From a virus, in the IMG/VR virus record IMGVR_UViG_3300041586_000126, positions 1 to 64,000 of that record: a stretch of 64,000 nt of DNA, one strand, 5' to 3'. How positions within the stretch are numbered: the first letter of the stretch is position 1; the number at the start of each line of letters is the position of its first letter. This document shows positions 1 through 17,251 of this stretch, in pieces. The notes under the pieces are model-generated. The model was not told the DNA's origin and did no database searches. It was given only the letters and a program-made list of their open reading frames with translations. A program made the position numbers and the translations under genes.

Positions 1-2
1 GT

Positions 3-140
3 ACATTAATAACTACCCTACCCCAAGGCTTAACAGTAGGAGGTGATATTTATTTAACTAATACCCCTATCTCTAAAGAATATAGTAAAGAACAAATTAA
101 AACAATGGCTCCTGGAGTTAAAGGTGAAGTTTATATGTAA
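3..140 (+). CDS. C-terminal end of a leucine-rich-repeat-like protein (partial)
   Basis: Frame reads TLITTLPQGLTVGGDIYLTNTPISKEYSKEQIKTMAPGVKGEVYM*; the ITxLPxGLxVGGxLYL unit is typical of phage LRR-like proteins. Confidence 0.65.
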   Translation, partial: TLITTLPQGLTVGGDIYLTNTPISKEYSKEQIKTMAPGVKGEVYM

Positions 141-219
141 ATACATAATGATAAAATTAATAGAAAACTTGGCGATATTACTTCTCCTTCATATATTTAT
201 AACTGTATAAAAATAACTA

Positions 220-369
220 ATGACAACTATTCAAAGCATATTTACAAATTTACGCTCCTCGATGCAGGTCCATAATATATGGACGCTGTGTGGTGATGTG
301 ATTTGTGGTTTGGTGTTTAATAGTGAATATAAGCAACCGAGAAACATTTCCGGGTTTATTATGAGTTGA
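220..369 (+). CDS. 49-aa putative leader (attenuator) peptide
   Basis: ATG220..TGA369, MTTIQSIFTNLRSSMQVHNIWTLCGDVICGLVFNSEYKQPRNISGFIMS; 3' end carries a sequence complementary to the downstream terminator. Confidence 0.55.
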   Translation: MTTIQSIFTNLRSSMQVHNIWTLCGDVICGLVFNSEYKQPRNISGFIMS

Positions 370-394
370 TAATTTAAAAACATATCATTTATAT

Positions 395-426
395 AAACCC
401 GGATCTAAAAAATTCGGGTTTTTTTG
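395..426 (+). terminator. Intrinsic terminator with an alternative antiterminator pairing
   Basis: AAACCCGGA-loop-TTCGGGTTT followed by a T run; 349-359 TCCGGGTTTAT is the exact reverse complement of 393-403. Confidence 0.8.
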
Positions 427-446
427 TTAAAGTAAGTGTAAAAAAA

Positions 447-479
447 CTAGGAGATGTGAAATATAGTTCGTATATTTAC
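447..479 (+). promoter_or_regulatory. Repeated early promoter (Bacteroidetes -33/-7 type), first of ~20 copies
   Basis: Consensus (T/C)TAGG or TTGG-N~15-TTCGTATATTTAC; copies near 447, 639, 3697, 3979, 4480, 5869, 6191, 10841, 14709, 25792, 26957, 30053, 31286, 32899, 35146, 35843, 36368, 38304, 40819, 44419; resembles the TTG / TAnnTTTG sigma-A promoter of Bacteroidetes. Confidence 0.75.
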
Positions 480-496
480 GTATTAAAATTAGAGAT

Positions 497-634
497 ATGG
501 AAAAATTTAAAGACACTAAAGTATTTAAAATGCTAGCTGAAAGATGGAAAGGTAGAGACATGGAAACATATTTTATCGAAAAAAACAAAGCCTATCATGA
601 AAAACTAAAAATTGAAGTTAAAAACTTCACATAA
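497..634 (+). CDS. Small hypothetical protein (45 aa) between two promoter repeats
   Basis: MEKFKDTKVFKMLAERWKGRDMETYFIEKNKAYHEKLKIEVKNFT*, directly downstream of an early promoter. Confidence 0.6.
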   Translation: MEKFKDTKVFKMLAERWKGRDMETYFIEKNKAYHEKLKIEVKNFT

Positions 635-684
635 AAAATTAGGAGATGTGAAATATAGTTCGTATATTTACGTTATAAGAAATT

Positions 685-708
685 AAAGTTCATTGACATA
701 TTGGATAA
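685..708 (+). promoter_or_regulatory. boxA-like antitermination element (identical copy at 4528-4551)
   Basis: AAAGTTCATTGACATATTGGATAA occurs twice, each time between an early promoter and the first tRNA of a sub-array. Confidence 0.55.
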
Positions 709-714
709 TATTAA

Positions 715-802
715 GGAAGGTGAAGCAGTGACATGGAGTCGCGACTAGTCTTGAAAACTAGGTTTCGTTAATTCGGATGGGGTTCGAGTCCTCCTCCTTC
801 CT
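715..802 (+). tRNA. tRNA-Ser(TGA)
   Basis: GGAAGG..CCTTCC acceptor, CTAGT-CT-TGA-AA-ACTAG anticodon arm, long variable arm, GGTTCGAGTCC T arm. Confidence 0.9.
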
Positions 803-889
803 CAAAAGATTCTACCCTGATCTGAAAGTTGGCCTAACGGCCCAGCTGATATGCTTGGTAGAGGACATAGGAGTCCTGCTTCTATATTT

Positions 890-961
890 TAGCCTGTGGT
901 ATAACGGTTATTACATTTGACTTTGACTCAAATAATGGGAGTTCGATTCTCTCCAGGCTAA
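890..961 (+). tRNA. tRNA-Gln(TTG)
   Basis: TAGCCTG/CAGGCTA acceptor, TTTGA-CT-TTG-AC-TCAAA, GTTCGATTC T loop. Confidence 0.9.
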
Positions 962-989
962 CAATAATCAGAATAAAAGTAGATTAATT

Positions 990-1064
990 CGGGTAGTATT
1001 CTCGGGGTGAGAAGCTCGCTTTGGAAGCGAGAGGCGGGAAGTTCGACTCTTCTCTACCCGACCA
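990..1064 (+). tRNA. tRNA-Pro(TGG)
   Basis: CGGGTAG/CTACCCG-ACCA, CTCGC-TT-TGG-AA-GCGAG. Confidence 0.9.
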
Positions 1065-1228
1065 TTAGGAATATGGTAGGCATATCATATTAAATAAAAG
1101 ATTAAGCTTAATATCATAATAAGCTCTCTTAGCCATAGAGGTAACTGCTACAACAGGTTTAAATGTAATGATATCAAATCATTTAAATGTAGGTGGGTGT
1201 TATGTCCACAAAACTTTTATTTTATTTT

Positions 1229-1300
1229 GCCCTTGTAGCAAACCGGTGTAGGCAACTGTCTTTTAAACAGTGGGGCCAGGTTCGACTCCTGGCAGGGGCA
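1229..1300 (+). tRNA. tRNA-Lys(TTT)
   Basis: GCCCTTG/CAGGGGC acceptor, CTGT-CT-TTT-AA-ACAG, GGTTCGACTCC. Confidence 0.9.
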
Positions 1301-1358
1301 CAAAAGAGACTGTTATTAATTCATAGAAGGAATCAAGTCCGAAGCTTAGAATTAAATT

Positions 1359-1431
1359 TACCTCTTTGGTGTAATGGAAGCGTATAACTTTTACATAGTT
1401 AGGGAGATGGTTCAATTCCATCTATTGGTAC
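1359..1431 (+). pseudogene. Degenerate tRNA-Val(TAC)-like gene
   Basis: TGGTGTAATGG D arm, TAACT-TT-TAC-AT-AGTTA, GATGGTTCAATTCCATC T arm; acceptor stem has 2 mismatches. Confidence 0.5.
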
Positions 1432-1550
1432 TATATTTAAAACCGCTCGGGTTCAAACATAGAAATATGTGGAGGATAATTCAGTCACCCGCACCTCGTA
1501 AGAGACAACTATAGACTGACAAGTAAGGAAAGTGGGAGCCTTACAAACAT

Positions 1551-1624
1551 GGTGTTTGTAGTTCAATGGTAGAATGTTTGACTGTGAATCAAAAGACGAA
1601 GGATCGATACCTTCCTTACACCCA
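1551..1624 (+). tRNA. tRNA-His(GTG)
   Basis: G-1 start, TTTGA-CT-GTG-AA-TCAAA, ends CACCCA. Confidence 0.85.
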
Positions 1625-1629
1625 AAAAT

Positions 1630-1709
1630 GCCCGTGTGATGAAATTGGAAAACATATCTCTTTTAAGCGGAGACGCGTAAGCTTGTAGGTTCGAGTCCTA
1701 TCACGGGTA
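1630..1709 (+). tRNA. tRNA-Leu(TAA)
   Basis: GCCCGTG/CACGGGT acceptor, TCTCT-TT-TAA-GC-GGAGA, variable arm, GGTTCGAGTCC. Confidence 0.9.
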
Positions 1710-1799
1710 CAATAAGGAAGAGCTAGAGAGTCCTAAATGATATCTAAAATCTCCTAGCAGTTTTTAAGATTGGTTTTTGCTTTAAAAAATCCTTCAAAT

Positions 1800-1872
1800 A
1801 TTCCCGTAGCATAAATGGAAATGCCCTCGAATACGAATCGAGAGATTGAGAGTTCGAATCTCTCCGGGAATT
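1800..1872 (+). tRNA. tRNA-Arg(ACG)
   Basis: ATTCCCG/CGGGAAT acceptor, CTCGA-AT-ACG-AA-TCGAG, GAGAGTTCGAATCTCTC. Confidence 0.85.
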
Positions 1873-1895
1873 CGAACATATTTCTTTCTCTTTCC

Positions 1896-1913
1896 CATAT
1901 GTATAATAAAACA
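1896..1913 (+). promoter_or_regulatory. Shared promoter-like motif of homing-endonuclease genes (CATATGTATAAT-x-AAAACA)
   Basis: Same motif at 1896, 6718, 8058 and 19951, each ~20 nt upstream of an endonuclease ATG. Confidence 0.6.
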
Positions 1914-1917
1914 TAAT

Positions 1918-2535
1918 ATGGGTAGGAAAAAAGAAAATATAGAGTTAATATTAAATGGTCAAATAAAAGAACCATATAGTATTACCTTGAAAAGGCACAT
2001 GCTCCCACATTTGGGTGATAAATGTAGTAGTTGTAATCTTAATATGTGGCAGGGAAAAATTATAACCCTTGAACTGGATCATATTGATGGTGATAGGTGG
2101 AATAATAACATAAATAACGTTAGATTATTATGTCCTAATTGTCATTCTTTAACCCCTACATGGAAAAAGAAAAAAATTAAAAAAGAAAAAATATCTGAAG
2201 AAAAATTATTAGAAATTATTAAAACCAACCCCTATCAAAGTATTAATTTTATACTTTCTAATATTATTAAAGACCATAATACTGAATTTTACTATAAGAA
2301 AATAAAAAATCTATGTAGTGTTCACAATTTACCTGTACCAAAAAGGATTACAAAACCCTTTTATAGTTATGGCAAGTTTAACACTAAAAAAGAATATTAT
2401 TTAAGCTTATTAAAAAATTCTAAAATTGATTTTAATAAAAAAACTTGGGGTATAGAAGTATCTAAATTGTTAAAAATAACCCCTCAATATGCTTTAAATT
2501 TAGTAAAAAATCATTTTAGTCATTTATTAAAGTAA
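1918..2535 (+). CDS. HNH homing endonuclease
   Basis: CSSC...LELDHIDGDRWNNNINNVRLLCPNCH motif; start moved to ATG1918 because the upstream extension overlaps tRNA-Arg. Confidence 0.85.
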   Translation: MGRKKENIELILNGQIKEPYSITLKRHMLPHLGDKCSSCNLNMWQGKIITLELDHIDGDRWNNNINNVRLLCPNCHSLTPTWKKKKIKKEKISEEKLLEIIKTNPYQSINFILSNIIKDHNTEFYYKKIKNLCSVHNLPVPKRITKPFYSYGKFNTKKEYYLSLLKNSKIDFNKKTWGIEVSKLLKITPQYALNLVKNHFSHLLK

Positions 2536-2543
2536 CCAATAAT

Positions 2544-2618
2544 ATCTTTATAGTTCAATGGATAGAACCTTCGGCCACAAACCGAAAAATGGGAGTTCGA
2601 ATCTCTCTAAAGTTACTA
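2544..2618 (+). pseudogene. Decayed tRNA-Arg(ACG)-like gene (anticodon loop now CC-ACA-AA)
   Basis: TAGTTCAATGGATAGAAC D arm and TTCGG/CCGAA stem match tRNA-Arg(ACG); U33 lost, acceptor mismatch. Confidence 0.6.
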
Positions 2619-2627
2619 GTATTAATT

Positions 2628-2827
2628 GTTGACGTTTATAGACGTTTTAATGGACGAGGGTTCGATTCCCTCCGGCTCCACTCTGGTAATTAAAAAACAA
2701 GGGGCCGCTTGGAATTGACGTTAGAAAAAGTAAATAAATTGAGATTAGTATTTATCGCAAACGGAAACTTTGCAATAGCAGCCTAGCAATAGGCTTTAAA
2801 TCCTTAAACAAGGTTTATAGATTTAAC
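2628..2827 (+). ncRNA. ssrA: Circularly permuted (two-piece) tmRNA, tag (A)ANGNFAIAA*
   Basis: 3' half (GGACGAGGGTTCGATTCCCTCCGGCTCCA, 2652-2680) precedes the 5' half (GGGGCCG..GGAATTGAC, from 2701); G3-U70 pair; tag ORF 2757-2786; 2628-2643 pairs with 2813-2827. Confidence 0.9.
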
Positions 2828-2856
2828 GTACCGCCTGAAACGTAATTCAGGCAAAT

Positions 2857-2929
2857 GGCTCTATGATGTAACTGAATAGCATAGAAATCTTCTAAATTTC
2901 TTGTATGGGTTTGAATCCCATTAGAGTCT
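2857..2929 (+). tRNA. tRNA-Arg(TCT)
   Basis: GGCTCTA/TAGAGTC acceptor, GAAAT-CT-TCT-AA-ATTTC. Confidence 0.85.
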
Positions 2930-2944
2930 CAATTAATAAATAAA

Positions 2945-3017
2945 GGGGGTGTCGTCAATTGGCAGACAACTGGATTCCAATCCCAGCATAGTGTGGGTTC
3001 AAATCCTACCACCCTCG
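2945..3017 (+). tRNA. tRNA-Trp(CCA)
   Basis: GGGGGTG/CACCCTC with G discriminator, CTGG-A-TT-CCA-AT-C-CCAG. Confidence 0.8.
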
Positions 3018-3073
3018 CAATAATAAGGTTCGATTTATTATATTTGTACCACCATTAACTTAATTATTAAATC

Positions 3074-3583
3074 ATGAAAAATCGTTATGACAAAACCTTA
3101 GTAATTGACTCTAGTTATATTGCTAGGAGTATTATCACCACAGAAAGAGCATTTGTAGTCTCATATAAGGGAAATGCAGACATAATAGAGGAATACCCAG
3201 AAACATTTGGTGTTGTAAACCCAAATCTAACAATTTTTAAACCTTCTATTATTAGAGTACACACTTATGTAAAAATGAATTTTCAAAAAGTACCTCTAAC
3301 ACGTGAAAATATATTTAAAAGAGATGGGTATTTGTGTGTATATTGTGGTCACGATAAACGCAAGGATCTAACGATAGATCACGTTATACCTCAATCTAAA
3401 GGTGGGCCTAATACATGGGATAATTTAGTATCTGCTTGTATAAAATGTAATAATGAAAAAGCAAGTCTAACATTAAAGGAATATGGAAAATCTATTCCAA
3501 AACCAAAAAGACCCCATTATCTAATGTTATTAAAAAAAACATTATTTATACCGGATGAATGGAAACTTTATTTATTAATGTAG
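3074..3583 (+). CDS. McrA-like HNH endonuclease
   Basis: RENIFKRDGYLCVYCG...TIDHVIPQSKGGPNTWDNLVSACIKCNNEK. Confidence 0.9.
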   Translation: MKNRYDKTLVIDSSYIARSIITTERAFVVSYKGNADIIEEYPETFGVVNPNLTIFKPSIIRVHTYVKMNFQKVPLTRENIFKRDGYLCVYCGHDKRKDLTIDHVIPQSKGGPNTWDNLVSACIKCNNEKASLTLKEYGKSIPKPKRPHYLMLLKKTLFIPDEWKLYLLM

Positions 3584-3589
3584 AAAATT

Positions 3590-3663
3590 GAGCAAGATGT
3601 TTATGGTTGGACAGTTAGTTTGCAAAACTAATCTTTTAGTGGGTTCGATTCCCACCTTGCTCT
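3590..3663 (+). tRNA. tRNA-Cys(GCA)
   Basis: GAGCAAG/CTTGCTC with T discriminator, TTAGT-TT-GCA-AA-ACTAA; short D arm. Confidence 0.8.
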
Positions 3664-3751
3664 CAAAAATATAAGTACAAAACAAATACAAAAAAACTAG
3701 GTTACCCGGAATATAGTTCGTATATTTACACCTAATAAAAAAATAAAAGTT

Positions 3752-3961
3752 ATGAAAGAATATAAATTTAATGAGTCTGACACAAGATCAAATATTGATA
3801 AAATAAAATCAATTTTTTTTGATTATGCAGAAGGGATTAGTTATTTAGAGATTAAATTAGAAGATTTAGATATTATTGCTAAGAGAATTGAGATAGAAGT
3901 AATGAATATACAAGATGATAATGAATTTGTTGGATTGAAAGATTTAAATAAGAAACTTTAA
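3752..3961 (+). CDS. Hypothetical early protein
   Basis: ORF behind an early promoter repeat; shares the MKEYK start with the next gene. Confidence 0.65.
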   Translation: MKEYKFNESDTRSNIDKIKSIFFDYAEGISYLEIKLEDLDIIAKRIEIEVMNIQDDNEFVGLKDLNKKL

Positions 3962-4033
3962 AATTAATATACAACAAATTAGACTACCTGAAGTATTGTT
4001 CGTATATTTACACCTAATAAAAAAATAAAAGTT

Positions 4034-4468
4034 ATGAAAGAATATAAAGTAGAAGTTACAAAAAATAGTACAGAATGGTACAACATGGAAGGTAAACGTC
4101 ATAGAGAAGATGGACCTGCTATAGAGTATAAAGGTGGAGATAAATTTTACTTCATTAATGGTAAACACCACCGAGAAGATGGACCTGCTATAGAGTATGT
4201 AAATGGAGATAAATGGTACTACATTAACGGTAAATATCACAGAGAAGATGGACCTGCTATAGAGTATGTAAATGGAAATAAATGGTACTACATTAACGGT
4301 AAACATCACAGAGAAGATGGACCTGCTGTAGAGTATTCAAGTGGAACTAAATCTTACTATATTAATGGTGAACTTTTAACTGAAAAAGAATTCAACAACA
4401 GAACCAAGCCATGTATAGATAAGGTGGTAGAGATTGACGGAGTAAAGTATAAACTATCTAAACTATAA
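4034..4468 (+). CDS. HREDGPA-repeat protein
   Basis: Four 23-aa repeats HREDGPAIEY..G.K.YYING; paralog at 29669. Confidence 0.85.
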   Translation: MKEYKVEVTKNSTEWYNMEGKRHREDGPAIEYKGGDKFYFINGKHHREDGPAIEYVNGDKWYYINGKYHREDGPAIEYVNGNKWYYINGKHHREDGPAVEYSSGTKSYYINGELLTEKEFNNRTKPCIDKVVEIDGVKYKLSKL

Positions 4469-4560
4469 TCATATAAAGACTAGGCTACCCGGAATATAGT
4501 TCGTATATTTACGGAATAGAAAATAAAAAAGTTCATTGACATATTGGATAAAATTAAATT

Positions 4561-4633
4561 GCTCATGTGGTGGAATGGTATACACGGCTGTTTTAGAAGC
4601 AGTATTTTGCAGGTTCGAATCCTGCCATGAGTA
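4561..4633 (+). tRNA. tRNA-Leu(TAG) with short variable loop
   Basis: GCTCATG/CATGAGT acceptor, TGGTGGAATGGTATACAC D arm, GCTGT-TT-TAG-AA-GCAGT. Confidence 0.85.
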
Positions 4634-4639
4634 CAAATT

Positions 4640-4937
4640 TTCTTTCAAGTCCTGACCTAACTGTGGGTTTGGTTGCAACCAAAACTACGGGACCGTAAGG
4701 GGAAAGAACTTCTAATTGTTATTAAAGTAAGTACCGGTATCTAGCTGCGGTTAATCACTGTGTTGATGGGAAAACTTGTAAGGTGTTGATGGGCCTTATA
4801 ACTACGCTAGACAATTAATACGCGTTAAAAGTTTAGATACTAGTCCGTACAGAGGTACTGGTTAGAATTAGAAGTAAAACATAAAGTTAGACGTTCGAAG
4901 GAGAACTTAAAAGGTATTCAAATCACCATTCTAACTT
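4640..4937 (+). ncRNA. Putative structured non-coding RNA(s) in the tRNA array
   Basis: Nested complementary arms: 4640-4646/4702-4708, 4708-4717/4866-4875, 4730-4735/4854-4859, 4737-4744/4833-4840, 4884-4891/4930-4937; no ORF. Confidence 0.45.
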
Positions 4938-4980
4938 AATTTATTGTGGATAAATAGTTGAAAATTTTTATCCTCAACAT

Positions 4981-5052
4981 GCTCATTTATTTTAATTGGT
5001 AGAATCCCAATCTTGTAAATTGGAGGAAAAAGTTCGAATCTTTTAATGAGCT
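4981..5052 (+). tRNA. tRNA-Thr(TGT)
   Basis: GCTCATT/AATGAGC acceptor, CCAAT-CT-TGT-AA-ATTGG. Confidence 0.85.
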
Positions 5053-5112
5053 CTAAAGTAAACACCCCCTATGGGCAGAGTGATCTTAGGGAGATCAATG
5101 TTTACTTTTAAT

Positions 5113-5185
5113 GCGAGTGTAGCTCAATTGGTAGAGTGCTATCTTTCCACGTTAGAAGTTGGGGGTTCGAACCCCCCCACTCGCT
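5113..5185 (+). tRNA. tRNA-Gly(TCC)
   Basis: GCGAGTG/CACTCGC acceptor, TAGCTCAATTGGTAGAG, TT-TCC-AC loop. Confidence 0.9.
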
Positions 5186-5303
5186 CAAAAGCCCGAAGTA
5201 CAAGGGATCGAAGATAGGTGTTGCCTCTGCTACAAGCACACTCACCTCCAAATCGTAGGTTGGTACAGTTGGTAACTCTGGGAATATTACAAAAGTTACA
5301 AAT

Positions 5304-5375
5304 GCTCCTGTCGACAACTGGCTAAGTCACTACCCTTTCACGGTAGAGTAGAGGGATCGATACCCTCCGGGAGTA
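5304..5375 (+). tRNA. tRNA-Glu(TTC)
   Basis: GCTCCTG/CGGGAGT acceptor, CTACC-CT-TTC-AC-GGTAG. Confidence 0.9.
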
Positions 5376-5380
5376 CAATT

Positions 5381-5453
5381 GGGGATATGGTGAAATTGGC
5401 TATCATAGTAGATTTGCATTCTACTGTTCCGAGTTCGAACCTCGGTTTCTCCA
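5381..5453 (+). tRNA. tRNA-Ala(TGC)
   Basis: GGGGATA acceptor with G3-U70, GTAGA-TT-TGC-AT-TCTAC. Confidence 0.85.
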
Positions 5454-5527
5454 CAATTAGGAGATATCTACCTTAGGTAGGTGTTCTGTCAAGGTTTTTA
5501 AGGTTGAACCAGTAATCAACCTTAACC

Positions 5528-5602
5528 GGTCTATTAGTGAACTGGCTATCATGCTACCCTGTCACGGTAGAGTAGAGGGATCGAAACCTTCATAGACCGC
5601 CA
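5528..5602 (+). tRNA. tRNA-Asp(GTC)
   Basis: GGTCTAT/ATAGACC-GCCA, CTACC-CT-GTC-AC-GGTAG. Confidence 0.9.
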
Positions 5603-5605
5603 AAT

Positions 5606-5676
5606 TGCGTTAAGGTGTAAAGGTTGCATGGGACTCTCATAAGGTCTACGGGGTGGTTCGAATCCACATTACGCAA
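5606..5676 (+). tRNA. tRNA-Met(CAT), possibly initiator-like
   Basis: TGCGT/ACGCA acceptor, GGACT-CT-CAT-AA-GGTCT. Confidence 0.75.
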
Positions 5677-5737
5677 CTAAATAGTTTTATAGGTCGTTCT
5701 GTCCTTGAGTTCTATTTCAAAACTCTAAAAAAGGCAA

Positions 5738-5813
5738 GGTCCCTTAGCTCAGTCTGGTAAGTAGCAACTCGCTCATAACGAGAAGGTCACAGGTTCAAAT
5801 CCTGTAGGGACCA
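5738..5813 (+). tRNA. tRNA(CAT), probably Ile2 (lysidine type)
   Basis: GGTCCCTTAGCTCAG...AGGGACCA resembles bacterial tRNA-Ile2; CTCG-CT-CAT-AA-CGAG. Confidence 0.8.
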
Positions 5814-5928
5814 CAAAAATATTTATCCAATATACTTCTAATTATTTATTATCTTTCCTTGACCCCTGCTTGGGTACCATACTTATGGTTCGTATATTCG
5901 ATTAAATAATTAAAACAAACTAAATATT

Positions 5929-17212: not shown

Positions 17213-17219
17213 TTTAATT

Positions 17220-17251
17220 GAGGGAGTGTTAGGCTCCCTCATTTATTTTTT
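17220..17251 (+). terminator. Intrinsic terminator
   Basis: GAGGGAG-loop-CTCCCTC followed by ATTTATTTTTT. Confidence 0.75.

What the first reader, a model, noticed from the sequence alone, without database searches (positions are those of the whole stretch)
220..426. Codon-diverse leader peptide with terminator/antiterminator in front of the tRNA array: a possible general tRNA-damage sensor
Seen: a 49-codon ORF uses 19 of 20 amino acids and many codons rare here (CGC, TCG, ACG, CTG, GTG, CCG, CAG, GTC). Its last codons (349-359, TCCGGGTTTAT) are exactly complementary to the 5' arm (393-403) of the intrinsic terminator that follows. Established: classical attenuation geometry, where a ribosome reaching the stop masks the antiterminator and a stalled ribosome allows read-through. 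Inference: rather than sensing one amino acid, this leader samples many tRNAs, so host anticodon nucleases or starvation would switch on read-through into the tRNA/tmRNA array. Caveat: early promoters at 447 and 639 lie downstream, so this would control only transcription from upstream (late-type motif at 194).
Basis: partly seen in the sequence, partly recalled or inferred. Interest (0 to 1): 0.75.

Follow-up and report, generated by a model that had tools for sequence, protein, structure and literature searches.

The report
Translation-sensing leader before phage tRNA array
A conserved 49-codon mini-gene, whose last codons can pair with the transcription stop signal behind it, sits in front of the tRNA genes of this salt-lake flavobacterial-type phage and all its relatives; it probably lets transcription run on into the tRNA genes when ribosomes are slow, which is not tested here.

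Summary
ORF 220-369 (49 codons, 19 amino acids), the exact 11-nt complementarity 349-359/393-403 and the terminator 395-425 are all there. The ORF's codon usage is the poorest of 1790 equal-sized windows of this genome.

Twelve distinct relatives (IMG/VR and JGI contigs) keep the same unit: same-class promoter, 46-51-codon ORF, hairpin domain spanning the stop codon, terminator, then a tRNA-Ser/Gln/Pro... array. In all twelve, the nascent RNA pairs the terminator's 5' arm with the ORF's last codons. This pairing covaries (CCGGG:CCCGG versus CCGAG:CUCGG, with the 3' arm following).

The ORF is coding (dN/dS 0.1-0.6). Codon usage is poor in 12 of 13 sequences. Fourteen of 18 family members use all 20 amino acids.

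Corrections: only a 5-9-nt core of the 11-nt match is conserved. The upstream promoter is the same class as the tRNA promoters, not "late". Two such promoters lie behind the terminator here, but none does in relative L059.

Best reading (about 0.5): a ribosome-mediated attenuator of the bmrB/trp kind, reporting general decoding speed. The main rival is a plain small-protein gene with its own terminator.

No expression data exist. This scan noted analogous leaders on other phage DNA; my searches found no published case.

The parts
169..199 (+). Promoter of the leader unit: TTGG (169-172), 19-nt spacer, TATATTTA (192-199). Same architecture as the tRNA-array promoters.
   Evidence: 187-199 is a one-mismatch copy of GTTCRTATATTTA, which has 11 exact copies in the window; conserved upstream of the ORF in all relatives.
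220..369 (+). Leader ORF: 49 codons plus TGA (367-369). Member of a family of 46-51-aa peptides.
   Evidence: This is the only frame open in all 13 sequences. dN/dS 0.1-0.6. No Pfam or PHROG family.
253..315 (+). Rare-codon cluster (codons 12-32: CGC TCC TCG .. CAG GTC .. ACG CTG .. GTG .. TTG GTG). A ribosome stalled here would leave 349-359 free.
   Evidence: The mid-ORF position of the rare codons is kept in relatives; the first ten or so codons are nearly always common ones.
349..359 (+). Segment 1: codons 44-47 (TCC GGG TTT AT), the 5' strand of the antiterminator.
   Evidence: exact complement of 393-403. The core CCGGG/CCGAG is conserved and covaries.
349..403 (+). Antiterminator domain: a long hairpin that contains the stop codon in its 5' strand.
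   Evidence: -21.1 kcal/mol here; -11 to -19 in relatives.
395..425 (+). Intrinsic terminator: 5' arm 395-404, loop 405-411, 3' arm 412-421, T-run to 425.
   Evidence: 100% paired in 13 sequences, with two covarying pairs. One of only 2-3 strong terminators in 87 kb.
448..478 (+). First downstream promoter (TAGG-N19-TATATTTA). It drives the 45-codon ORF 497-634.
   Evidence: This cassette is absent in relatives L053, L040 and L059.
640..670 (+). Second downstream promoter, directly in front of the tRNA array.
715..5814 (+). tRNA array that follows: a tRNA-Ser(UGA)-like gene at 715-801, 17 ARAGORN tRNAs, a permuted tmRNA at 2634-2786, and HNH genes in between.
   Evidence: The same array start (Ser, Gln, Pro, Lys, Val ...) is found in all relatives.

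Best explanation
This is a ribosome-mediated transcription attenuator. A promoter of the phage's standard class (169-199) starts a short transcript whose 49-codon ORF is translated. The last codons of the ORF (349-359) and the 5' arm of the terminator (393-404) can pair, closing a hairpin domain that contains the stop codon. That pairing excludes the terminator hairpin (395-421). A ribosome that keeps pace with RNA polymerase occupies the last codons and the stop codon while the 3' arm is made. The 5' arm is then free, the terminator forms, and the transcript ends at about 425. If the ribosome lags or stalls in the rare-codon-rich middle of the ORF, or if nothing translates the ORF, the antiterminator forms first. 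Polymerase then reads on into the tRNA/tmRNA array. The ORF uses (nearly) every amino acid and many poorly used codons, so it would report overall decoding capacity rather than one amino acid. Shown here: the sequence elements, their conservation, the covariation, the coding status and the predicted alternative folds. Inferred: that the ribosome's position decides termination, and that read-through matters for tRNA output.
For: 1. Geometry: exact 11-nt complement, and the antiterminator is the MFE fold. With a ribosome masked at the stop codon, the full terminator forms in 12/12 distinct sequences. With a ribosome masked at codon 24, the nascent RNA forms the segment 1:2 pairing in 12/12.
2. 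Conservation: in 12/12 distinct relatives the nascent-RNA MFE pairs the terminator's 5' arm with ORF positions -22..+3 relative to the stop. After shuffling the upstream RNA this happens in only 0-8.5% of cases per sequence.
3. Covariation: segment 1 / segment 2 / segment 3 read CCGGG / CCCGG / CGGG in some lineages and CCGAG / CUCGG / CGAG in others. On an alignment anchored at segment 1, 96% of cells are paired, against 51-55% when the partner is slid by one column; one pair is GC in 6 and AU in 4 sequences, and 10 of 500 shuffles reach the observed score. Between lineages A and B, UAU:AUA becomes UAG:CUA.
4. The antiterminator domain (-11 to -21 kcal/mol) is comparable to the terminator (-11 to -18) in every lineage.
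5. The ORF is translated: it is the only frame open in all 13 sequences, indels are in frame, and dN/dS is 0.1-0.6.
6. Poor codon usage is a family trait: bottom 0-4% in 12 of 13 sequences, with the rare codons mid-ORF.
7. 14 of 18 family members use all 20 amino acids and the rest use 19. The background chance of 20 in a 49-aa window is 1.1%.
8. The unit always sits directly before the tRNA array, although the upstream genes differ.
9. In L059 the only standard promoter lies upstream of the ORF, and no recognisable promoter lies between the terminator and tRNA-Ser. That is the classical attenuator layout.
10. There is a tested precedent for a leader of about 50 codons, rich in rare codons, that senses general translation rate: bmrB (PMC4191407).
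Against: In this window two standard promoters (448-478 and 640-670) lie between the terminator and the array. Read-through could therefore add only a fraction of tRNA transcription here. Outside the window's own lineage the segment 1:2 core is short (5-9 nt), and the equilibrium fold is the terminator. The covariation rests on few independent events, and tail and terminator may be inherited together as one recombining module. The peptide has conserved residues (MxTIQNIH, W, SLCGD, YNxEPKQ), which suggests a function of its own. The consensus already contains 19 amino acids, so the use of all 20 is largely one inherited trait, and the permutation test is inflated by relatedness. The codon table of this genome was applied to the relatives. 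No RNA data exist. The nearest cultured phage lacks the element.
Confidence: 0.5

Rival explanations
1. An ordinary stand-alone gene for a small helical phage protein, with its own promoter and its own terminator. The terminator also insulates the tRNA promoters from upstream transcription. The pairing of the ORF tail with the terminator arm is a by-product, or serves only to stabilise the 3' end of the mRNA.
For: It has its own promoter and terminator, and separate promoters serve the array here. Purifying selection and conserved residues are seen across members that are 34-48% identical. AlphaFold gives one helix, residues 2-37, at modest confidence. Gene order in related phages can be conserved by descent alone.
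Against: It does not explain why the variable C-terminal tail keeps its complementarity to the terminator arm through changes of sequence and register. It does not explain why codon usage is consistently among the worst in the genome. It does not explain why L059 has no promoter behind the terminator. No family or fold match was found, and pLDDT is 62 with a disordered tail.
Confidence: 0.27
2. A nascent-peptide-dependent arrest sensor. The conserved peptide stalls its own ribosome in response to a specific signal (a small molecule, a host factor or a phage factor). That stall, not tRNA supply, sets the terminator/antiterminator choice.
For: It has the same RNA geometry as the best explanation. 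Peptide residues are conserved (MxTIQNIH, W21, C24, K38/P40), which a pure codon sampler does not need. The precedents are arrest peptides such as TnaC, SecM and the Erm leaders (my own knowledge, not tested here).
Against: The residues nearest the stop codon, where arrest motifs usually lie, are the most variable part (ISGFIMS, GGTEV, TKTGI, DFDGV). No known arrest motif was recognised. The rare-codon enrichment is left unexplained.
Confidence: 0.13
3. A small non-coding or dual-function RNA of about 215 nt that acts in trans. The open frame would be incidental.
For: It is a discrete promoter-to-terminator unit, and 200-430 folds well in this lineage (z -4.5).
Against: The frame, start codon and stop codon are kept in all 13 sequences, with in-frame indels and dN/dS below 1. 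RNAalifold finds no conserved structure in the ORF body. There is no Rfam family; Thr_leader scores 26.9 bits against a threshold of 55.
Confidence: 0.05

Closest known systems
bmrB leader of bmrCD in Bacillus subtilis: ribosome-mediated transcriptional attenuation that senses translation rate (Reilman et al. 2014, PMC4191407)
   Same: A leader ORF of about 50 codons (53 there, 49 here) with rare codons. There is a terminator and a less stable or competing antiterminator. Slow translation favours read-through. It senses general translation, not one amino acid.
   Different: There the terminator lies inside the ORF, and the regulated genes are a drug exporter without a promoter of their own. 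Here the terminator lies 25 nt behind the stop codon, the downstream genes are tRNAs, and in this lineage they have their own promoters. That case is tested; this one is not.
Classical leader-peptide attenuators of amino-acid operons (trpL, hisL, and the multivalent thrL and ilvL)
   Same: The order is promoter, short translated ORF, mutually exclusive antiterminator and terminator, then the structural genes. The ribosome's position decides the outcome.
   Different: There is no run of codons for one amino acid, and no clear 1:2 'protector' hairpin. Untranslated RNA is predicted to read through rather than terminate. Rfam's Thr_leader scores only 26.9 bits against 55, and only over the terminator.
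Stress-induced long tRNA array (trn operon) of Anabaena PCC 7120 (PMC8421152, PMC10272220)
   Same: An extra, near-complete tRNA set whose expression rises when translation is impaired.
   Different: [quoted passage not shown] The words 'attenuat', 'leader' and 'terminator' do not occur in that paper's text. That system is cellular, not phage.
Earlier AI notes of this scan: leader-peptide attenuators in front of tRNA arrays of Caulobacter phiCbK-like, marine Bacteroidota and other large phages
   Same: The same layout and the same proposed logic: a mini-ORF that spells out the amino acids of the array, followed by a switchable terminator.
   Different: Those are unrelated sequences, with leaders of 23-32 codons matched to sub-arrays. 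Here one conserved peptide family of 46-51 codons covers all 20 amino acids. Those notes are unchecked leads, not evidence.
rnTrpL/peTrpL of Sinorhizobium: an attenuator whose RNA and leader peptide have functions of their own (PMC6614838, PMC7968998; titles and abstracts seen)
   Same: It shows that a conserved, functional leader peptide and an attenuator role can coexist.
   Different: That is a Trp-specific attenuator in a bacterium. No trans function is shown for the phage element.

Membership tests
Ribosome-mediated (leader-peptide) transcription attenuators | A short translated ORF in the transcript upstream of the regulated genes | tested here: met
   The 49-codon ORF is the only frame open in all 13 sequences. 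Indels are in frame and dN/dS is 0.1-0.6. Translation itself was not observed.
Ribosome-mediated (leader-peptide) transcription attenuators | An intrinsic terminator between the leader and the downstream genes | tested here: met
   10-bp stem plus T-run at 395-425. 100% paired, with two covarying pairs, in 13 sequences.
Ribosome-mediated (leader-peptide) transcription attenuators | An alternative structure that shares a strand with the terminator and is placed so that a translating ribosome can mask it | tested here: met
   349-359 pairs with 393-403. This pairing is found in the nascent folds of 12/12 relatives, against 0-8.5% of shuffles. It covaries. Ribosome-mask folds switch the structure. 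All of this is in silico.
Ribosome-mediated (leader-peptide) transcription attenuators | Regulatory codons: a run of, or enrichment for, codons of the sensed amino acid (trp/his type) | tested here: not met
   There is no run of any codon. Instead the ORF uses 19-20 different amino acids and has a cluster of rare codons. This fits the bmrB type, not the trp/his type.
Ribosome-mediated (leader-peptide) transcription attenuators | Downstream genes depend on read-through, with no promoter of their own behind the terminator | tested here: inconclusive
   Not met in the window, where promoters lie at 448-478 and 640-670. Met in relative L059, where the terminator is followed 20 nt later by the tRNA-Ser leader.
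Ribosome-mediated (leader-peptide) transcription attenuators | Termination efficiency changes with translation of the leader | not testable with these tools
   No RNA run holds the region: the metatranscriptome run that was laid gave zero cover. No cultured phage carries the ORF family.
Rfam Thr_leader (RF00506) | Score at or above the family's gathering threshold | tested here: not met
   26.9 bits against 55, E 0.079, covering only 369-428, i.e. the terminator part.
Any described protein family (Pfam-A, PHROGs) | A significant profile match | tested here: not met
   No Pfam hit. One PHROG hit of unknown function at E 0.024, for one relative only. The ESM Atlas gave no usable hit.

The most novel reading that the evidence does not exclude
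The leader is a 'pan-tRNA sentinel'. It would be a mini-gene kept under selection to contain every amino acid at least once, many of them as poorly decoded NNG/NNC codons. Shortage or cleavage of any one tRNA species would stall the ribosome and open the terminator in front of a near-complete replacement tRNA set plus a tmRNA. The apparent conservation of the peptide would then largely reflect the need to keep single-copy codons (W, C, H, P, E, K, Y, D). The relocation of His in lineages A and C and in P0012, and of Trp in L061, hints at this.
Probability: 0.3. Interest if true: 0.8.

Novelty: new variant of a known kind. Interest (0 to 1): 0.64.

Why it matters
Phage tRNA arrays are now discussed as a counter-measure to host tRNA depletion and anticodon nucleases, but how their expression is controlled is largely unknown. 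If this reading is right, the phage measures decoding capacity directly with a test ORF and couples the result to synthesis of its own tRNAs and tmRNA. That extends leader-peptide attenuation from amino-acid and drug-resistance genes to the translation machinery itself, in Bacteroidota-type phages where attenuation is little studied. The element is compact (about 260 nt), conserved, and has natural variants: with or without internal promoters, and with a strong or a weak antiterminator. It is therefore directly testable. This scan has noted analogous layouts in unrelated phages, which suggests a convergent and general strategy.

Tried and rejected
1. DNA search of 'phages' with window 1-1200: no match. 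tblastn of the peptide against 'phages': no match at E up to 1.
The DNA of the more distant family members P0006, P0008, P0011 and P0012 could therefore not be fetched, and their terminators could not be checked.
3. Genome-contig scan: no relative in prokaryote genomes.
4. The plain MAFFT alignment A4 puts segment 1 of the distant relatives one column out of register. The 7-pair test on it was uninformative (74.7% paired, against 75.8% at slide -1). I re-anchored the alignment at the segment 1 core (A7). That choice favours the structure and is declared as such.
5. A conserved RNA structure in the ORF body: RNAalifold finds none, so the long hairpin 222-330 seen is specific to this lineage.
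6. The antisense ORF 231-383 is not conserved.
7. Control set of other terminators in the genome: too few exist, with only 2-3 strong ones in 87 kb.
8. A second leader in front of the later tRNA block (3580-4600): none found.
9. RtcB: none in the contig, which is estimated 54% complete.
10. Sequencing runs: DNA runs gave only variants already known (254 G>T). The laid metatranscriptome run gave no cover. The RNA runs hold only about 6% of the sampled words, so nothing can be said about expression.
11. The nearest cultured relative is Flavobacterium phage immuto, at 50% identity on a glycosyltransferase. It has only four tRNAs. An unrelated 51-codon ORF sits before its tRNA-Ser, without a terminator.

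Full report
WHERE THE WINDOW LIES. The window is the first 64 kb of a single 87,192-bp viral contig. IMG/VR classes the contig as linear, and its completeness is estimated at 54%. It has 32% G+C and all its long ORFs lie on the + strand. DNA runs labelled salt-lake metagenome hold it. The nearest cultured relative is Flavobacterium phage immuto, at 50% amino-acid identity on a glycosyltransferase. Promoters have the form T(T/A)GG-N19-TATATTTA, and start codons sit in A-rich contexts without a Shine-Dalgarno sequence. From my own knowledge this fits a Bacteroidota host. The finding lies at the very start of the contig, between the truncated 3' end of a repeat-protein gene (3-140) and a tRNA array.

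ORF 220-369 has 49 codons and uses 19 of 20 amino acids. 349-359 is the exact reverse complement of 393-403. The terminator has stem 395-404/412-421 and a T-run to 425. The complementarity is in fact part of a hairpin of about 21 bp (349-403) that contains the TGA stop codon in its 5' strand. That hairpin is the MFE fold of 340-430. It is worth -21.1 kcal/mol, against -11.1 for the terminator. The rare-codon claim is also strong. CAI is 0.467, against 0.706 +/- 0.070 in 49-codon windows of 58 long ORFs, and none of 1790 windows is as low. GC3 is 0.41 against 0.21.

RELATIVES. Pattern and peptide scans of IMG/VR and JGI metagenomes found three close lineages: A (the window's own, e.g. L039), B/B' (L044, L053) and C (L040). 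They also found eight more distant contigs, L054-L061. An exhaustive profile search added peptide-only members P0006-P0012. Every locus has the same order: a same-class promoter; an ORF of 46-51 codons; a hairpin domain over the stop codon; a terminator; then tRNA-Ser, Gln, Pro, Lys, Val and so on. This holds although the upstream genes differ. No member was found in cultured phages or in prokaryote genomes.

THE ORF IS CODING.
- It is the only frame that stays open in all 13 sequences.
- Indels are multiples of three.
- dN/dS is 0.1-0.6 for most pairs.
- Conserved positions are MxTIQNI(H), W, SLCGD, (Y/F)NxE(Y/P)KQ. The last 5-7 residues vary.
- There is no Pfam, PHROG or Atlas match.
- AlphaFold gives one helix (residues 2-37) at pLDDT 62, with a disordered tail.

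THE RNA SWITCH IS CONSERVED. I folded each nascent transcript up to the terminator loop, i.e. before the 3' arm exists.
- The terminator's 5' arm pairs with ORF positions -22..+3 relative to the stop in 12 of 12 distinct sequences. With the upstream RNA dinucleotide-shuffled, this happens as strongly in only 0-8.5% of cases per sequence.
- The 11-nt match of the window is a lineage-specific extension. The shared core is 5-9 nt.
- The core covaries. Where the stem is CCCGG/CGGG, the ORF tail reads CCGGG (codons TCC GGG or ACC GGG). Where the stem is CUCGG/CGAG, the tail reads CCGAG (ACC GAG).
- L054 keeps the pairing in another register (GAUC.GAGU with ACUC.GAUC). Lineage B replaces A's UAU:AUA by UAG:CUA.
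- On an alignment anchored at the core, 96% of cells pair, against 51-55% when the partner is slid by one column. One pair is GC in 6 and AU in 4 sequences, and 10 of 500 shuffles reach the score. The unanchored MAFFT alignment misregisters this segment and was uninformative.
- The terminator itself pairs in 100% of cells, with two covarying pairs.
- The antiterminator domain is -11 to -21 kcal/mol and the terminator is -11 to -18 kcal/mol.
- Masking 30 nt around the stop codon (a terminating ribosome) gives the complete terminator in every sequence. Masking 30 nt at codon 24 gives the antiterminator pairing in every nascent RNA.
- The stop codon lies 25-32 nt before the 5' arm and 56-71 nt before the end of the T-run. 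A ribosome at the stop would therefore cover segment 1 but not segment 2. This last point is inference from typical ribosome footprints.

PROPERTIES OF THE LEADER AS A SENSOR.
- Poor codon usage is a family trait: bottom 0-4% of background windows in 12 of 13 sequences. The rare codons lie in the middle, and the first ten or so codons are nearly always common ones. The caveat is that the window genome's codon table was used for all sequences.
- In the window, 8 of the 13 synonymous-rare codons are NNG. By standard wobble rules (established knowledge), within the phage's own tRNA set only U34 tRNAs (Gln, Pro, Val, Leu, Thr, Ser) could read them.
- 14 of 18 distinct family members use all 20 amino acids and the other four use 19. 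Only 1.1% of 49-residue windows of this phage's proteins reach 20.
- A column-permutation null expects 3.3 of 18. That null ignores relatedness, and the family consensus already holds 19 different residues. I therefore treat this as one inherited and maintained property, not as many independent events.
- The relocation of His (lineages A, C and P0012) and of Trp (L061) when the canonical position is lost is suggestive, but each case alone is not significant.

- The promoter before the ORF (187-199) is a one-mismatch copy of the motif GTTCGTATATTTA. That motif occurs 11 times exactly in the window, including both 'early' promoters, with identical spacing to a T(T/A)GG element. It is not a different class.
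- In the window, two such promoters stand between the terminator and the array. One of them belongs to a duplicated cassette with a 45-codon ORF, which L053, L040 and L059 lack. Read-through can only supplement array transcription here.
- In L059 the standard promoter lies upstream of the leader. The terminator is followed 20 nt later by the conserved tRNA-Ser leader sequence, with no recognisable promoter. That is the textbook attenuator layout.
- Strong intrinsic terminators are rare in this genome, about 2-3 in 87 kb. This one is therefore unlikely to be incidental.

WHAT IS KNOWN. The closest tested mechanism is the bmrB leader of B. subtilis. It is a 53-codon ORF with rare codons, whose slow translation favours an antiterminator over a more stable terminator (PMC4191407). 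Classical trp/his/thr/ilv attenuators share the layout but use runs of cognate codons. Rfam's Thr_leader matches only the terminator part, below threshold. A stress-induced tRNA array is known in Anabaena, but it is controlled at the promoter (PMC8421152). Full-text searches for attenuators of phage tRNA genes found nothing. Earlier AI notes of this scan describe analogous leader-terminator units before tRNA arrays in unrelated phages. None overlaps this sequence family. They are leads, not evidence.

VERDICT. I rate the ribosome-mediated attenuator at about 0.5, a plain small-protein gene with an insulating terminator at about 0.27, a peptide-specific arrest sensor at about 0.13, and an sRNA at about 0.05. 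The specific trigger (tRNA damage versus any slowing of translation) cannot be told from sequence.

Noticed in passing
window 715-801: A tRNA-Ser(UGA)-like gene that ARAGORN does not call and Rfam scores only as a weak tRNA-Sec hit (35 bits). The homologous position in the relatives is called tRNA-Ser(tga) in nearly all of them. The D-arm or variable region looks altered here.
   Followed up: partly
window 2634-2786: A permuted tmRNA inside the tRNA array (Rfam RF04321, 58.5 bits against a threshold of 47). It would also be reached by read-through from the leader.
   Followed up: no
window 1846-2535 and 3074-3583: Two HNH endonuclease ORFs are inserted in the tRNA array. The first starts inside tRNA-Arg(acg), 1800-1873. 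Between tRNA-Val and tRNA-His the window lacks the Tyr/Phe/Asn/Ile/Met tRNAs that relatives L040 and L044 carry there.
   Followed up: partly
window 448-670: A duplicated promoter cassette (192-nt period) encloses a 45-codon ORF (497-634) with normal codon usage (CAI 0.72). The cassette is present in lineages A and B and absent in L053, L040 and L059.
   Followed up: partly
window, 11 sites from 466 to 36392: The promoter core GTTCGTATATTTA occurs 11 times exactly, all on the + strand and all in the first 37 kb. Each is preceded by T(T/A)GG 23 nt upstream of the TATATTTA box.
   Followed up: partly
L057 2716-2900 and L058 2716-2910: Between the terminator and tRNA-Ser these relatives carry an extra structured RNA of about 130 nt. 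It has two T-arm-like GGTTCGA(A/G)TCC motifs and its own promoter. ARAGORN does not call it.
   Followed up: no
L073 (NC_055915.1 20739-21005): Flavobacterium phage immuto has an unrelated 51-codon ORF with a similar promoter directly before its tRNA-Ser. It is followed by a small GTCGCA/TGCGAC hairpin but no T-run. This may be an analogous or degenerate arrangement.
   Followed up: partly
window 3-140, and L007 5300-5650: The upstream gene encodes tandem repeats of about 20 residues (..TSLPQGLTVGGDLNL..), LRR-like. It is cut by the contig start. Lineage C has a different gene at this place.
   Followed up: no
window 2544-2616: ARAGORN calls a tRNA-Cys with anticodon ACA (A34), which is unusual. 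Relatives show odd calls of the same kind: tRNA-His(atg) in L040 and tRNA-Phe(aaa) in L055.
   Followed up: no
G000 17215-17245 and genome-wide: Only about 2-3 strong canonical intrinsic terminators exist on the + strand of the 87-kb contig: 395-425, 17215-17245 and perhaps 78522-78544.
   Followed up: partly
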